Of a DNA stretch of 64,000 bases, positions 5,828 to 10,302 are shown piece after piece. The notes beneath the pieces are model-generated. The model did not search any database and was not told the DNA's origin. It worked only from the letters and a program-made list of their open reading frames with translations. Positions within the stretch are counted from its first letter, which is position 1; each line of letters starts with the position of its first letter. The position numbers and the translations under genes are program-made. Source of the stretch: Candidatus Thorarchaeota archaeon (GTDB lineage: Archaea; Asgardarchaeota; Thorarchaeia; Thorarchaeales; Thorarchaeaceae). Location: assembly GCA_046482545.1 (NCBI GenBank), contig JAWOEX010000028.1, positions 224,001 through 288,000 on the forward strand. The letters run 5' to 3'.

Positions 5828-5922
5828 GCTCCACCATATTCATCTTTTTTAAAAATCGATAAAATATCCTATTCGGTTCTATAACTGCTCAGATTGAAAT
5901 CGCTTTGCCGATTTTTCCCGGT
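5828..5922 (-). promoter_or_regulatory. Promoter of the RadA/XPD operon with two conserved boxes (copy 1)
   Basis: On +: GCTCCACCATATTCAT (5828-5843), TTTTTAAAAA TATA-like (5846-5855), GCTTTGCCGATTTTTCCCGGT (5902-5922). Both boxes recur exactly 4380 bp to the right. Confidence 0.75.
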
Positions 5923-6075
5923 AAAAGGCCGTTTTGAAGGAAAATGATGACAAAATCTATGCTGATTGTTTTTCAGAAGCAGGACTATTCCATAGCAGGA
6001 TTTTCAAGTTAGATTGAACCAGTCACAAATCTACTAGGAGTATCGTTGTTCCACTGTTCTGAAGCTAACTGCCAA

Positions 6076-6934
6076 TTAGGCAAATGTCAGGAAGTCAATT
6101 AGAAGGCCCAACAGACCAACAATGACAAAGATACTGAAAGCTTTAGATTCTGAGCATTTCCCATAAGTCCCTTCATACGCTCCTTTGCTGCCTAAGTACG
6201 CCCCCAGAGTAGAGCAAGAAGCAAAAAGCGAAATTCAAGCCACCATTGAAGCATTATTGTATCGGCTATTTCTCTATCAAGCAACGAGACAAATAATACA
6301 GAATCAGTAATGTTGCCTACATCAACTGTAAAACCGGGATGAATATCCAGCTCAATGGCGCTGTAATCAAGCCAAGTAGTATTCTCGGAATGTACGAATA
6401 ACCAGTCACTGATGCCGCGGTTTCGAAACTCCAAGAGGTTTCACTGCTGCATAAATAGTGCACACACAGGCTCTTAATGAGCCATATGATAAAGGCTGAA
6501 GTTGGAAAAAACACAGATTGGAGCATAAATTGAGTAGTAACGTATTTCAAAGCCGCAGAGGAACCATCTCCAATGAATTGGAACTTGGGATAGATTGTTC
6601 CTATTAATAATAGACCTATTATGGAATTCACGATGATGACGAAGAACGAGTTCGCGTAGCTGGGCCAGGATGCAATATCAGCCATAGCTTCCTCTGGTGA
6701 TGTAATAGCCTTCATCAATTGCTGTCTCAAGGAGAGTTCTTTCTTCACATCCAAAGTCTTCAGATCTGCGCACCTCCTCGTCACGGTAGTCTCTGAAAAA
6801 CTCAAGTGAATTCTTTTCTTCGTTTTCCGATTCCAGCGGCTCTGCGCCAGAGCCCTCAGAAGATTCATCATCTCTCCTCTGGTCATCTTCTTTGTTATTA
6901 GACCTTGGAAACTGCTCCACACTCCTGTTGCCAA
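6076..6934 (-). pseudogene. Frameshifted Yip1-like membrane protein
   Basis: Pieces in successive frames: acidic N-terminus (ORF 6678-6920), Yip1-like core (AITSPEEAMADI...GYSYIP), TVDVGNITDS...LLLALLWG, and AYLGSKGAYEG...LLIDFLTFA ending in TAA at 6076. About three frameshifts are implied. Confidence 0.65.
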
Positions 6935-7279
6935 TGATGATACCGACGAAACTGCTAAGAAATCCTTTTATCCGATTCTGGGTAGTCAGAAAAGATAATG
7001 TGAAATTTCAACAAGAACAGAGGTCTTTTGTTGAGATACGAACAGAGTTATTCAAGTAATAATTGACAGAGAAACGCATGGGTCAGGAAGACTTGCTCAG
7101 TTTCGTCCAGGGCGAAAAGAAGTTTGAGCAGACAGAACGGAGAAAAGAATCAGATTAACCAAAGGGCGAATTTTCCCCGTACTGTTGCGTCACGGGAAAC
7201 CTATAGAATAGGAAAAAACCATGAAAAATCAGTTTCTTGGATTCTTCTCTTTTGCGCTGAAATGCATGTTCCAAGTGAG

Positions 7280-8008
7280 TCATTTGTCCATGAAATGTTC
7301 TAGTGGAAGAGTGGTACCGAACGTCGGTGATTTCATCCGCGATCCTCTCCGTGGTGGATGTACCGGATGCTTCGCCAGTTTATATTTGACATACGCTCGA
7401 GAATCATCTACGTACACATGCACTTGGCAGCAGCTTGTCAGGGCTCGTCCTCCAAGCGGTAACTTCAGCTTGCTTTCGGAAAGCCCAGCTGTTACTACAG
7501 TCACAATCTCCCTTCGCAACGTGAAAGACTGCAATCTGTGTGCCATGTGGGTGATTTGTCGGGTGCTGTCCTGTGTGATGCCTTCGCGGTGGTAGATGTC
7601 CGCAAGACCCGGCACGATGAGTGTTTTAGCGGGAACTTGCTCAAAGAACTCGTCAAGCTTGTTGGTAACAAGATCGTAAGTTTGCGACGAATTGAATGCC
7701 CGCGAGATGAATACACGATCCATGACGTCCTCTGGTTCGAGATTTGCCCACAAACAGTAATCCGCAAGGGTGGCGACATCCATGATGTTGTTACTATCAA
7801 TTATGATGACAGGAGCACCAAGGCCGCCTTCATCTACCGGCCGCTGTGCAGAAACAGCAATCTGGAGAACATCATCCCGCAATACCTTGTCGCCGTAAAA
7901 GAGATGCATGAGACCGGCTTCGAGCCCACCTCCGAGTAGCTGGTCGAGCGTTTCGCTTCCCGTGCTTACAACCTTGGTTGTTTTTTGGTCTGCAGTTCGG
8001 AATGCCAT
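7280..8008 (-). CDS. RadA/RadB-like paralog with degenerate Walker A
   Basis: STGSETLDQLLGGGLEAG, IDS, ISRAFN and LGGRALTSCCQVHV match the RecA-fold core. The P-loop reads FYGDKVLRDD (no GKT) and there is no N-terminal HhH. Confidence 0.85.
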   Translation of the reverse strand: MAFRTADQKTTKVVSTGSETLDQLLGGGLEAGLMHLFYGDKVLRDDVLQIAVSAQRPVDEGGLGAPVIIIDSNNIMDVATLADYCLWANLEPEDVMDRVFISRAFNSSQTYDLVTNKLDEFFEQVPAKTLIVPGLADIYHREGITQDSTRQITHMAHRLQSFTLRREIVTVVTAGLSESKLKLPLGGRALTSCCQVHVYVDDSRAYVKYKLAKHPVHPPRRGSRMKSPTFGTTLPLEHFMDK

Positions 8009-8277
8009 GGTTCACATAGTTATTGTCTGCAGAGGTCTATAAACTGCCCATAAGAAATCCATTCTGTAAGCGTATCTTTTTTTATGTTAATCTCCCCACA
8101 TGTATTTCGGCTATCATCAAAAACATTCGCACCTGCTCAGATATGGCCATAGCGAATCCGTAGAATCAGTTCCTCGTTACCTTCCACTTGACCAGTGCAA
8201 GCTATGAACGACACATCTTCAGTACACTCAGTATGTACCCCAGTTCTTCCACCGTTTACTTAATAGGGAGAGAGAGC

Positions 8278-9579
8278 ATGCATACTCTCGAGCCGAAAAT
8301 GGAACCCGTTGGAATTCTAATACTTGCCATCTTCATTTTCACAATGATTATAATTCTTTCAGAGAAAATAAACGAAACTGCCACGGCTCTGTTTGCCATG
8401 TGCGTGTCAGTGGGTCTTCTTATTGTAACCAATAGAATGGACTTTGAGACCTTCATTCTCCTCATTGAATGGGACACGATACTCTTCGTCACTGCGATGA
8501 TGATCGTAGTTTCGGTTGGTGCCTCTTCGGGTGTGTTCCAGTATATTGCCTTACACCTTGCTCAAAGGACAGGCGGTGAACCAAAGAGTGTCTTCACATC
8601 GTTCATGGCCTTTGTATTTGTAATCTCTCTATTCTTCGACCCTCTCCCAACTATGCTAATCATGGGACCCCTCACTGTTGAAGTTTGCAGGGCGATAGAC
8701 ATGGATTACCGAGTCTTATTGATTTCACAGGTAATTATCTCGAACTTTGCATCCTTTCCATCTATCGTTGGTTCTGTATCTAATCTCGTCATTTCTAGCT
8801 GGGCTAATATAGAGGCAGGCTATCTCTTTTTGGGACTCCTTCCTCTTTCTCTTCTATTGTTCCCGATTACGATGGCAATTCTTTCCAAGTATTACTCTGT
8901 AGAGTTAGCTTACAAAGAGTTGGATACAGATAATCCGCTGATGATGATTGAACCCAGTATGATGATTAAGTCCCGTCGTGATTTCTATATGTCTTCAATA
9001 GGAATGGGAATACTCTTTGTCGGCCTAGTAATTGGTCCCCAGATGCGGCTAGAGGCAGCCTTTCTTGCCCTGACTATTGCATCTGCCATGCTCATGTTCT
9101 CTGAAGATAGAGTGACAAGGTTTCTCAGAGAGCTCTCATGGGACACAATATTTTTTCTTATTGGCCTCTTTGGAATAATTGCAGCCATGGAGGTAACCGG
9201 TCTAATTGATGACATGGTGCTTGGTTTGCAGAATATCGTTGCAGGAAACCCCTTCGCGGCCATCTTGTTTATGCTATGGGTGCCGGGTCTGATTCTCGCA
9301 CCAATTGACAATATCCCCGTAGCAGCACTCTTGTCTCCTTTGGCTGTAGAATTCGGGGGGGCCCACGGTTCAATACCACTCTCCCTTATTATCGGAACAA
9401 ACATAGGTGGTTACATCATCCCCTTGGGCGATGCCCCTAACATGATAGCACTAACCTTAGCGGCTGACGCCGGAAAAAATATAGACCGTTGGGAGTTCAC
9501 TAAAATTGCCTTCGCTGTGGGACTTCTTCACCTTTTCATTTCTACAGCATACTGCTTTCTGCTCGTTTGGCTGATATGA
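8278..9579 (+). CDS. ArsB/NhaD/SLC13 (IT superfamily) ion transporter
   Basis: Multiple TM helices; IEWDTILF, LSWDTIFFLIGLF, DNIP, GTNIGG, GDAPNMI. Likely ATG at 8278 (ORF open from 8188). Confidence 0.88.
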   Translation: MHTLEPKMEPVGILILAIFIFTMIIILSEKINETATALFAMCVSVGLLIVTNRMDFETFILLIEWDTILFVTAMMIVVSVGASSGVFQYIALHLAQRTGGEPKSVFTSFMAFVFVISLFFDPLPTMLIMGPLTVEVCRAIDMDYRVLLISQVIISNFASFPSIVGSVSNLVISSWANIEAGYLFLGLLPLSLLLFPITMAILSKYYSVELAYKELDTDNPLMMIEPSMMIKSRRDFYMSSIGMGILFVGLVIGPQMRLEAAFLALTIASAMLMFSEDRVTRFLRELSWDTIFFLIGLFGIIAAMEVTGLIDDMVLGLQNIVAGNPFAAILFMLWVPGLILAPIDNIPVAALLSPLAVEFGGAHGSIPLSLIIGTNIGGYIIPLGDAPNMIALTLAADAGKNIDRWEFTKIAFAVGLLHLFISTAYCFLLVWLI

Positions 9580-9600
9580 GAGAGACACAGCCCGAACAGC

Positions 9601-10106
9601 GGCACCGGTCTTTCGGAACGTCAGTGTTCGAATATATCGTCAATCATATCGCCTCACAGGGAGAGAGCACATCCGTGTCAGTAGCCAGGGGTGCTGGTTT
9701 GGCTTGTAAGTGACATTTCCTCACCCATCTTTCAAAGGCAAAAGTATTCATCCTGTACAAGACAGTTGCGCCGAGTGCACTATCTCTCTAACAACACGAA
9801 ATTCCTTGTTGCTCTGCGTTATCACATCCTCGTAGGCCGACACGAACTCCACCGCATCAACCTCCTCTTGCTGGAACATCGCTGCAATGGCGGAATGACG
9901 AGACTAACCACGCTGTAATCAAGCACCTCGTAGCCGGGGCGTTCCGAAGCCCGGTACATAGCGTTTGGGACGTAGGCTTCGCTGATCTCGATAGGATTCC
10001 CAAGTACGTCATCGACGCTCTTCTGTTTTAGTTTCACGTAGAACGAAACGAGCGGCCTCATAACCGATGTCTGTCTTTATCTTGAGACAGCCTGAGACCA
10101 AGGTCC
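9601..10106 (-). ncRNA. Candidate large (~500 nt) structured non-coding RNA of unknown class
   Basis: TATA TTTATATA at 10144-10137. 5' GGACC-TT-GGTCT pairs with 3' AGACC-GGT-G-CC. More than 10 nested helices; their mismatches read as G-U wobbles only on the minus strand. Confidence 0.7.
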
Positions 10107-10136
10107 TAGATTATCAGAATGGTAGTCGGAATAGTA

Positions 10137-10144
10137 TATATAAA
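10137..10144 (-). promoter_or_regulatory. TATA box for the candidate ncRNA
   Basis: TTTATATA about 30 nt upstream of the RNA closing stem. Confidence 0.6.
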
Positions 10145-10207
10145 CCATCGGTCCAGACCACTTACGGGGAATGAGGGTTTAGAAAGCGATTAAGAACTCT
10201 GATAACC

Positions 10208-10302
10208 GCTCCACCATATTCATTTTATTTTAAAATTCTTAGATAACGATATAGAAGGCCCATATTGTTCATCTCCGATGTGCTTTGCCGATTTTTCCCG
10301 GT
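10208..10302 (-). promoter_or_regulatory. Two-box regulatory element (copy 2)
   Basis: On +: GCTCCACCATATTCAT (10208-10223), TTTTAAAA (10228-10235), GCTTTGCCGATTTTTCCCGGT (10282-10302). Same boxes and spacing as 5828-5922, with a diverged spacer. Confidence 0.75.

What the first reader, a model, noticed from the sequence alone, without database searches (positions are those of the whole stretch)
5828..10302. Two identical boxes at exactly conserved spacing upstream of both the RadA operon and the candidate ncRNA
Seen: GCTCCACCATATTCAT at 5828 and 10208, and GCTTTGCCGATTTTTCCCGGT at 5902 and 10282. Both offsets are exactly 4380 bp, and the spacer between the boxes has largely diverged apart from a TTTTAAAA TATA-like run. 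The 21-mer contains a CCG-N8-CGG dyad about 50 bp upstream of the TATA on the minus strand; the 16-mer lies between the TATA and the expected start site. Just downstream, both copies can fold a small hairpin around GAG(G/T)TCTTA. Inference: identical boxes with a diverged spacer indicate selection on regulator sites and a shared regulon. Copy 2 could alternatively serve the divergent regulator at 10654.
Basis: partly seen in the sequence, partly recalled or inferred. Interest (0 to 1): 0.75.

Follow-up and report, generated by a model that had tools for sequence, protein, structure and literature searches.

The report
Shared two-box promoter module, Asgard regulon
The two repeated boxes are real and belong to a promoter module that this Asgard (Thor-type) archaeon places in front of a handful of operons, including its extra DNA-recombination operon, so they most likely mark a small co-regulated gene set controlled by one dedicated DNA-binding protein.

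Summary
The 16-mer and 21-mer sit at w5828/w5902 and w10208/w10282, at the same 74-bp offset. The genome holds six full copies and one decayed copy. Each reads toward a minus-strand gene 100-150 nt away and has a TATA-like TTTTAA run just upstream of the 16-mer.

It is not a transposon end, an att site or a structured RNA.

Both same-genus genomes carry the module at the same three syntenic promoters:
- the 15-gene RadA-paralog operon;
- the 200-aa plus giant-protein unit 16 kb downstream;
- the GH3 gene.

The spacing is identical, but the boxes differ at three positions fixed in every copy, so the boxes track the genome while downstream flanks and synteny track the locus.

In another genus a different 20-mer marks the same promoters, four copies per genome.

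A tandem Lrp/AsnC-fold gene (w10654-12240) lies divergent from one module-bearing promoter in all seven genomes (six genera) checked. It is the best regulator candidate, but this is inferred only.

The "candidate ncRNA" is a GH3 pseudogene, and the hairpin claim fails.

Verdict: a real, genus-specific bipartite promoter/operator module defining a small regulon. It is a new member of a known kind and of moderate interest. Related notes on this stretch exist in the scan.

The parts
5902..5922 (-). Distal 21-bp box, copy 1. It reads ACCGGGAAAAATCGGCAAAGC on the minus strand, about -96 to -76 from the predicted start.
   Evidence: Identical in 5 of 6 genome copies, with one mismatch in the sixth.
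5845..5855 (-). TATA-like run of copy 1 (TTTTTAAAAAA on the minus strand).
   Evidence: The aligned position is TTTTAA(R)-like in most of the 12 copies from three species. This genome's tRNA promoters carry the same kind of box.
5828..5843 (-). Proximal 16-bp box, copy 1 (ATGAATATGGTGGAGC on the minus strand), between TATA and the predicted start near w5825.
   Evidence: The core AATATGGTGGAGC is invariant in all six copies.
5726..5827 (-). About 100-nt conserved leader between box 16 and the probable start codon. It holds a third semi-conserved box, C(G/T)C(C/T)CAT, and the stretch GAACGAAACATTGAGGCTAG.
   Evidence: Alignments. No consensus RNA structure was found.
4997..5725 (-). First gene of the 15-gene recombination/membrane operon. 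The probable start is ATG at w5725, not w5803.
   Evidence: Orthologs in G001 and G002 align from residue 25-26 onward, and the ATGGTGAA start is conserved.
10282..10302 (-). Distal 21-bp box, copy 2.
10228..10235 (-). TATA-like run of copy 2 (TTTTAAAA).
10208..10223 (-). Proximal 16-bp box, copy 2.
9647..10076 (-). It keeps residues 10-54 and 406-525 of the intact GH3 on contig C31, in three different frames, with residues about 55-405 deleted.
   Evidence: tblastn and blastn. The GH3 gene is intact behind the orthologous module in G001 and G002.
10654..12240 (+). Candidate regulator: a 528-aa protein with a tandem Lrp/AsnC-like fold, transcribed divergently from copy 2.
   Evidence: AF2 model of residues 165-528 has pLDDT 93.9. 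The best PDB match is NirDL 4czc, E 3.6e-7, followed by Lrp/AsnC regulators. Atlas neighbours carry HTH_24/HTH_AsnC. The gene is a syntenic neighbour of a module-bearing promoter in the seven genomes (six genera) checked.

Best explanation
The two boxes are the most constrained parts of a roughly 230-bp promoter/leader module. Read toward the gene, it runs: 21-bp distal box, 58-bp spacer ending in a TATA-like TTTTAA(R), 16-bp proximal box, predicted transcription start, then a 100-150-nt leader.

The module heads a small regulon in this Thorarchaeote:
- the 15-gene RadA-paralog/membrane operon;
- the 200-aa membrane protein plus 2597-aa giant-protein unit at that operon's end;
- the GH3 gene or operon;
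- in this genome, extra copies in front of a GH3-TBP-paralog-second-RadA-paralog operon and a small-gene unit on contig C31.

A dedicated sequence-specific factor is inferred to bind both boxes. The proximal box covers about -19 to -3, where archaeal repressors block RNA polymerase recruitment. The distal box sits where archaeal activators such as Ptr2 act.

The boxes change together in all copies of a genome while spacers drift, as expected if sites and regulator co-evolve. The best candidate for the factor is the tandem Lrp/AsnC-fold protein encoded divergently from copy 2.

Shown: the anatomy, copy number, synteny, concerted box differences and the protein's fold. Inferred: the start site, binding, the identity of the regulator and the sign of regulation.
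For: 1. There are six full copies with an identical 74-bp offset. None lie elsewhere, and the reversed-pattern control gave zero.
2. Every copy points at a gene whose start codon lies 102-148 nt beyond box 16. The downstream genes are unrelated apart from RadA, so this is not simple gene duplication.
3. The core pattern with a fixed 66-nt gap occurs in 3 of 3 genomes of the genus (6, 3 and 3 copies). It occurs in 0 of 83 other genomes of the family, and in neither public collection scanned.
4. Copies (a), (b) and (c) are syntenic in G000, G001 and G002.
5. Boxes are 35-37/37 identical among G000 paralogs but only 30-32/37 between orthologs. Three positions differ in all copies: box 16 position 10 (G vs T), box 21 position 12 (T vs A) and position 17 (A vs C). 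Paralog spacers are 22-38/58 identical; ortholog spacers are 32-39/58.
6. The TATA-like element lies at a constant place and matches the TATA type upstream of this genome's tRNAs.
7. In genus g4 a different 20-mer, AGGGTACAGAYTWTMACGGT, occurs exactly four times in each of two species. In G005, where the places were mapped, they are the GH3, operon and (b) promoters plus one more. In G011 a 21-mer is shared by promoters (a) and (b).
8. The 528-aa gene or its only detected homolog lies divergent from a module-bearing promoter in the seven genomes (six genera) checked. It has a confident tandem Lrp/AsnC fold.
9. Copy 2 keeps 37/37 box identity although its downstream GH3 is dead. This fits a role for the divergent regulator gene.
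Against: - There are no transcript, start-site or binding data.
- The TATA-like run is weak in some copies: C18, and G002 (a) which reads GTTTGAGG.
- A second TATA-like stretch 60-85 nt downstream of box 16 in some copies (TTTATATATAC in copy 2) could be the real core promoter. The boxes would then be far-upstream elements.
- 21/21 identity across six sites is tighter than usual for transcription-factor sites. Short-tract gene conversion cannot be excluded.
- The tandem Lrp fold is also that of the enzyme NirDL. The family has no Pfam HTH hit, so DNA binding is not shown.
- The spacer-based orthology signal is modest. Synteny and the downstream 95 nt carry most of it.
Confidence: 0.72

Rival explanations
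1. The module is a copied promoter cassette with no dedicated regulator. It is simply a strong core promoter (TATA plus initiator region plus an upstream element) that was duplicated in front of several genes. The boxes are kept by general constraints of the basal machinery, and short-tract gene conversion homogenises them within a genome.
For: - G000 has more copies (6-7) than G001 or G002 (3 located each). Some copies accompany rearranged gene fragments: C31, and C20 with a homolog of the G002 216-aa gene.
- Homology extends about 120 nt past box 16 in all copies.
- Box identity in G000 is unusually perfect.
Against: - The boxes do not resemble this genome's other promoters (tRNA upstream regions).
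- They occur only at these loci.
- Spacers between the boxes are highly diverged, so conversion tracts would have to stop exactly at the box edges.
- Another genus uses a different long box at the same promoters, four per genome. That points to a locus-specific factor rather than the basal machinery.
Confidence: 0.15
2. The module is a recombination or mobile-element site (an att/attC-like site, or a MITE or IS end) that delimits imported gene cassettes. This would resemble the repeat-delimited cassette array noted behind the 16S gene of this genome.
For: - Copies on one contig are in direct orientation and 2-16 kb apart.
- Several copies sit at or near contig ends: C18:23, and G001 C11, C12 and C135.
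Against: - No terminal inverted repeats or target duplications flank the module.
- The two boxes are not inverted copies of each other.
- The three main copies are syntenic across three species and lie inside a conserved operon context.
- No integrase or transposase is nearby.
- The module was not found in 83 other genomes of the family or in the two collections scanned.
Confidence: 0.04
3. The module is transcribed and acts at the RNA level, as a leader, riboregulator or small RNA whose conserved boxes pair with a trans-acting RNA. Alternatively it encodes a tiny leader peptide starting at the ATG inside box 16 (M-N-M-V-E...).
For: - Boxes of 16-21 nt identical in all copies are more typical of nucleic-acid pairing than of protein sites.
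- An ATG GTG GAG reading frame starts in box 16 in every copy. Its short ORF has the same length in orthologs: 4 codons at (a), 9 at (b), read from the sequences.
Against: - There is no consensus secondary structure or covariation on either strand.
- There is no Rfam match.
- The two boxes are not complementary to each other.
- With the TATA-like run, the predicted start lies 3' of box 16, so both boxes would be untranscribed.
- The mini-ORF differs in length and sequence between paralogs (4 to 25 codons).
Confidence: 0.06

Closest known systems
DNA-damage-responsive element (DDRE, 5'-ANTTTC-3') bound by Orc1-2 in Sulfolobales, shared by the ups, ced and tfb3 promoters (PMC5817253, PMC6061795)
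   Same: A short cis-element upstream of the core promoter is shared by a set of operons for DNA exchange and recombination. It defines a regulon in an archaeon and was first found by comparing promoters.
   Different: Here there are two long boxes (21 and 16 bp) at a fixed 58-bp spacing, in 6 copies. The DDRE is one hexamer found upstream of about 200 genes. The sequences are unrelated: GATTTC occurs beside box 21 only in some copies. The candidate regulator has an Lrp-type fold, not Orc1/Cdc6. Nothing has been tested experimentally.
Lrp/AsnC-family control of archaeal promoters: Ptr2 upstream activating sites in Methanocaldococcus, and LrpA operators overlapping TATA and the start site in Pyrococcus (established knowledge, not re-read here)
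   Same: One site lies upstream of BRE/TATA and one between TATA and the start. The regulator gene is divergent from a target promoter. Box 21 has a CCG...CGG core around an A-rich centre, as in 13-15-bp Lrp sites. The candidate protein has the Lrp/AsnC fold.
   Different: The candidate is a 528-aa fusion of two Lrp-like modules plus an N-terminal extension, with no Pfam HTH hit. The two boxes are unlike each other. The dyad is not conserved in sister species. Binding is untested.
Putative mobile promoters, i.e. promoter propagation in prokaryotes
   Same: A homologous promoter region is found in front of unrelated genes within one genome, and the copy number differs between close species.
   Different: Three copies are old and syntenic across the genus. 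Only the boxes stay identical while the rest drifts. There is no association with mobile elements.

Membership tests
Archaeal cis-regulatory promoter module (operator/UAS of a regulon) | Lies upstream of genes, in one orientation relative to them, at a consistent distance. | tested here: met
   All six copies read toward a gene. Start codons lie 102-148 nt beyond box 16.
Archaeal cis-regulatory promoter module (operator/UAS of a regulon) | A core promoter element (TATA/BRE) in register with the boxes. | tested here: inconclusive
   A TTTTAA(R)-like run lies at a constant place 7-8 nt upstream of the box-16 core in most of the 12 copies. It is of the same type as this genome's tRNA promoters. 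It is weak in two copies, and no start site is known.
Archaeal cis-regulatory promoter module (operator/UAS of a regulon) | Conserved at orthologous promoters of related species while neutral flanks diverge. | tested here: met
   The same three promoters carry it in G001 and G002 with an identical 66-nt core gap. Boxes are 30-32/37 identical against spacers of 32-39/58.
Archaeal cis-regulatory promoter module (operator/UAS of a regulon) | Specific binding by a regulator, and box-dependent expression. | not testable with these tools
   Needs EMSA or footprinting, reporter assays or DAP-seq.
MITE / IS end | Terminal inverted repeats, target-site duplication, scattered non-syntenic copies. | tested here: not met
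   No bracketing inverted repeats. Copies are syntenic across three species. None were found outside the genus among 83 family genomes.
Integron attC / integrase att site | Imperfect inverted repeats (R''-L''...L'-R'), or an identical core duplicated at element borders, with a neighbouring integrase. | tested here: not met
   The boxes are not mutually inverted. The spacer is not conserved. No integrase appears among neighbours scanned with Pfam.
Structured RNA leader / ncRNA | Conserved secondary structure with compensatory changes, or a match to a known RNA family. | tested here: not met
   RNAalifold gave only a 4-bp invariant stem with 0 covarying pairs on 6 copies. It gave nothing on 11 copies on either strand. 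Rfam gave no match.
Lrp/AsnC-type operator | A 13-15-bp imperfect palindrome with an A/T-rich centre. | tested here: inconclusive
   CCGGGAAAAATCGG fits loosely. Most G001 and G002 copies read GCGGGAAAANACGG, which breaks the dyad. Box 16 is not palindromic.
Sulfolobales DDRE (ANTTTC) | An ANTTTC hexamer upstream of the core promoter in every member promoter. | tested here: not met
   GATTTC follows box 21 in only some copies (C9:229828, G001 C135). It is not part of the invariant boxes.

The most novel reading that the evidence does not exclude
The module could be the operator of a peptide-responsive switch. The tandem Lrp-fold protein next to copy 2 (with its partner and the micropeptide gene lying between them) would bind both boxes and turn on a competence-like programme in Asgard archaea. 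That programme would comprise the membrane-anchored recombination operon, a giant surface protein and a GH3-type adenylating enzyme. The operator and regulator would be re-tuned in each genus, so the signal stays private to close kin.
Probability: 0.15. Interest if true: 0.8.

Novelty: new member of a known kind. Interest (0 to 1): 0.5.

Why it matters
The large recombination/membrane operon of Thorarchaeota has no known function and the organisms are uncultured. A sharply defined promoter module links that operon to a GH3-type enzyme, a giant surface protein, extra TBP and RadA paralogs and a neighbouring Lrp-fold protein. This gives a concrete, testable regulatory circuit: one protein, two DNA boxes and half a dozen targets.

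It also offers a clean natural example of operator sequences changing in step across all sites of a regulon between sister species. Such a case is useful for studying how regulator-site specificity evolves. For annotation, it shows that the supposed ornate RNA is a pseudogene, and it corrects the start of the operon's first gene.

Tried and rejected
- RNA element: RNAalifold on 6 and on 11 copies, both strands, gave no structure. Rfam was negative.
- Hairpin downstream of box 16: not better than shuffles and not conserved.
- tRNA 3'-end/att reading of GCTCCACCA: the upstream sequences do not form a T-arm, and aragorn finds no tRNA there (one search list).
- Leader peptide starting in box 16: variable length, and probably untranscribed.
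- MITE/IS: no inverted repeats bracket the module.
- Paralogy of downstream genes: only the RadA paralogs are related. The first genes are not.
- Weak 21-mer matches in other genera have no box-16 partner and are near the chance level.
- Metagenome and genome-collection scans for the core pattern found nothing. Records near this genome may be left out of those scans.
- First structure model of the whole 528-aa protein, from a 6-sequence alignment, was unusable at pLDDT 34. It was replaced by the 52-sequence model.
The contig of the 94%-identical ortholog P0001 could therefore not be read, so the direction of the box changes could not be set with a closer relative.
- Equivalence of the genus-g4 20-mer to box 16 or box 21 could not be settled. 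Distances to start codons vary from 118 to 193 nt, and its reverse complement only loosely resembles box 21.

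
Full report
**1. Observation**

The window is G000:C9:224001-288000 of a 3.05-Mb, 45-contig genome. Earlier notes of this scan place it in Thorarchaeota, an Asgard group.

GCTCCACCATATTCAT occurs at 5828 and 10208. GCTTTGCCGATTTTTCCCGGT occurs at 5902 and 10282. There are no further matches in the window even with 3 mismatches, and none in 100 shuffles for the 21-mer. Between the boxes the two copies are 26/58 identical. 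A TTTTAAAA-type run lies next to the 16-mer.

**2. Genome-wide picture**

The 21-mer occurs six times in the genome: five exact and one with a single mismatch. Each has the 16-mer 74 bp to its left.

| Copy | Place |
|---|---|
| 1 | C9:213726 |
| 2 | C9:229828 (w5828) |
| 3 | C9:234208 (w10208) |
| 4 | C31:13312 |
| 5 | C31:15518 |
| 6 | C18:23 (contig edge) |

A profile search adds one decayed copy at C20:235790. The reversed-pattern controls gave zero.

Read toward the downstream genes (window minus strand), the module is:
- ACCGGGAAAAATCGGCAAAGC;
- a 58-nt spacer;
- [AT/CT][G/A]AATATGGTGGAGC.

Homology continues weakly for about 120 nt past the second box and includes a third semi-conserved box, C.C(C/T)CAT.

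The start codons of the first downstream ORFs lie 102-148 nt beyond the 16-mer.

**3. What follows each copy**

- **w5828.** The 15-gene operon with a RadA paralog, a wHTH protein and an XPD helicase. Orthologs of its first gene begin at residue 25-26 of the longest ORF, and ATGGTGAA is conserved. The real start is therefore probably w5725.
- **C9:213726.** This copy sits at the end of that operon, overlapping the last 25 codons of a 206-aa ORF. It heads a 200-aa membrane protein and a 2597-aa protein.
- **w10208.** Downstream is a 79-aa ORF that is the remnant of a GH3-family gene. tblastn finds residues 10-54 and 406-525 of the intact GH3 of contig C31 in three different frames. The middle 350 residues are deleted.
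- **C31:13312.** It heads GH3, a 103-aa gene, a TBP paralog (45% identical to the TBP on C9), two unknown genes and a second full-length RadA paralog. That RadA is 41% identical to the operon's.
- **C31:15518.** It heads three small unknown genes.

Apart from the RadA paralogs, the downstream proteins are unrelated. The module has therefore been placed in front of different genes rather than copied along with one gene.

**4. What it is not**

- *Not a structured RNA.* RNAalifold finds only an invariant 4-bp stem with no covariation on six copies. It finds nothing on eleven copies from three species, on either strand. Rfam has no match.
- *No significant hairpin.* The small hairpin proposed just downstream is not better than shuffled sequence (z from +0.3 to -2.0) and differs between copies.
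- *Not a mobile element.* No inverted repeats bracket the module. No integrase or transposase lies among the neighbours.

**5. Relatives**

A core pattern, CGGGAAAANNCGGC-N66-AATATGNTGGAG, was searched with up to 3 mismatches.

| Searched | Result |
|---|---|
| G000 | 6 copies |
| G001 (same genus) | 3 copies |
| G002 (same genus) | 3 copies |
| 83 other genomes of the family (15 other genera) | none |
| Metagenome collection | none |
| Species-representative genome collection | none |

The copies fall into three syntenic groups:
- (a) in front of the operon;
- (b) about 16 kb downstream, in front of the 200-aa gene;
- (c) in front of GH3 and divergent from the 528-aa gene. GH3 is intact in G001 and G002.

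The spacing is identical in all twelve copies.

**6. Concerted change of the boxes**

| Comparison | Boxes | Spacers |
|---|---|---|
| G000 paralogs | 35-37/37 | 22-38/58 |
| Orthologs, G000 vs G001/G002 | 30-32/37 | 32-39/58 |

The downstream 95 nt are 48-70/93 identical between orthologs.

Three positions differ between G000 and both sisters in every copy:
- box 16 position 10: G vs T;
- box 21 position 12: T vs A;
- box 21 position 17: A vs C.

The boxes therefore follow the genome, while flanks and synteny follow the locus. This means either co-evolution of a handful of sites with one trans-acting factor, or very short conversion tracts. The decayed C20 copy carries the sister-type base at two of the three positions. 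This hints that the G000 versions are derived, but the evidence is weak.

**7. The same regulon with other boxes elsewhere**

In five other genera GH3 and the operon are divergent neighbours, and unit (b) lies about 18 kb downstream where it shares their contig (G005, G011).

In G005 (genus g4) the three promoters share A[CT]AGGGTACAGA[TC]T[AT]T[CA]ACGGT. This 20-mer occurs exactly four times in G005 and four times in G020, a second species of that genus. In G005, where the places were mapped, the fourth copy heads a 1065-aa gene.

In G011 a 21-mer, AAAA[CG]GTGA[GA]ATTTCAGCAAT, is shared by promoters (a) and (b) and is otherwise absent.

The linkage of these promoters is thus older than the genus, while the box sequence is genus-specific.

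**8. Promoter anatomy (inferred)**

Upstream regions of this genome's tRNA genes carry CTTTTAAT, CTTAATA or CTTTAAG-type TATA boxes. The aligned TTTTAA(R) run of the module is of the same type.

Archaeal TATA boxes are usually centred near -26 (established knowledge). On that basis the start falls about 3 nt past the 16-mer, near w5825 and w10205. The 16-mer then covers roughly -19 to -3, and the 21-mer roughly -96 to -76.

The first is the classic position of archaeal repressor operators. The second is the position of upstream activating sites.

A second TATA-like stretch 60-85 nt further downstream in some copies leaves the real start open.

**9. Candidate regulator (inferred)**

*Location.* The 528-aa gene at w10654-12240 is divergent from copy 2. 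Its G002 ortholog (58-60% identical) is divergent from module (c). In G005, G006, G007, G011 and G012 its only detected homolog lies divergent from promoter (b). In G005 the homolog of the neighbouring 639-aa gene flanks the same unit on the other side.

*Fold.* The family is small, with 66 representatives, and has no Pfam hit. An AlphaFold model of residues 165-528 built on 52 sequences is confident (pLDDT 93.9). Its best match is the tandem Lrp/AsnC-like protein NirDL (E 3.6e-7), followed by single Lrp/AsnC regulators. Atlas neighbours carry HTH_24 or HTH_AsnC domains.

*Caveat.* NirDL is an enzyme, so the fold alone does not prove DNA binding.

*Supporting details.* The putative recognition helices differ between G000 and G002 at several positions (alignment read against helices). 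That copy 2 keeps perfect boxes in front of a dead gene fits a role in controlling the divergent regulator gene.

**10. Comparison with known systems**

Functionally, the nearest described case is the Sulfolobales DNA-damage regulon. There the hexamer ANTTTC upstream of the ups, ced and tfb3 promoters is bound by Orc1-2 (PMC5817253, PMC6061795).

The present module differs in several ways:
- sequence;
- size (two long boxes);
- copy number (six against about 200 genes);
- candidate regulator family.

Mechanistically it resembles Lrp-family control of archaeal promoters. Membership cannot be claimed without binding data.

**11. Verdict**

This is a real, non-random, genus-specific bipartite promoter module that defines a small regulon around the Thorarchaeal recombination operon. 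The regulon reading of the first stage is supported. Its ncRNA, hairpin and dyad details are not.

It is a new member of a known kind, namely shared operator sites of a local regulon. Two features deserve follow-up: box changes fixed in every copy between sister species, and a consistently linked tandem Lrp-fold protein.

Related first-stage notes on this stretch exist in the scan (e1-5527542, e1-5527546).

Noticed in passing
window 9647-10076 (-): This is a GH3-family pseudogene. It keeps the N-terminal 45 codons and the C-terminal 120 codons in three frames, with the middle about 350 codons deleted. An intact paralog lies on contig C31 (L022:11628-13205). This stretch was noted elsewhere as an 'ornate ~500-nt RNA'.
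   Followed up: yes
L022 (contig C31) 7441-13205 (-): An operon headed by a module copy: GH3, a 103-aa gene, a TBP paralog (45% identical to the TBP at C9:119577-120188), 284-aa and 117-aa unknown genes, a second full-length RadA paralog (41% identical to the operon's RadA) and a 347-aa unknown gene. A dedicated TBP inside this regulon could act as an alternative basal factor.
   Followed up: partly
window 5725 vs 5803 (-): The longest ORF of the operon's first gene starts at 5803. Same-genus orthologs align only from residue 25-26, and the ATGGTGAA at 5725 is conserved. The annotated N-terminus is probably leader DNA.
   Followed up: partly
L023:9612-9650 (-) = C9:213612-213650: In the leader of the 200-aa gene an 8-bp hairpin, CTCGTTGA-N6-TCAACGAG, abuts a GAGGT Shine-Dalgarno-like motif just upstream of the start codon. 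The stem is invariant and the loop varies in G001 and G002. It may control translation.
   Followed up: no
L023:9743-10363 (-): The 206-aa last ORF of the upstream operon runs through box 21, the spacer and the TATA-like run of module (b). It stops 1 nt before box 16. The same holds in G001 and G002 (L057 and L061, 1517-2137). This internal promoter is therefore embedded in a coding tail.
   Followed up: partly
L025:7775-7888 (contig C20:235775-235888): A decayed module copy (ACCGGGAAACTACTGCAAAGG ... ATGAATATGTAAAAAA) lies in front of a 76-aa and a 206-aa gene. The latter is 44% identical to the third gene of the GH3 operon of G002, so G000 has scattered that operon over several places.
   Followed up: partly
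G001 contigs C11, C12 and C135 (L040, L042, L044): Three identical (c)-type module copies sit at or near contig ends in G001. The region is repeated or breaks the assembly there.
   Followed up: no
L077 (G005:C42:383001-402000): In genus g4 the homologs of both Lrp-fold proteins (582 aa and 663 aa) flank the 199-aa plus 2608-aa giant-protein unit. A fourth copy of the genus-specific 20-mer heads a 1065-aa gene with no homolog found in G000.
   Followed up: partly
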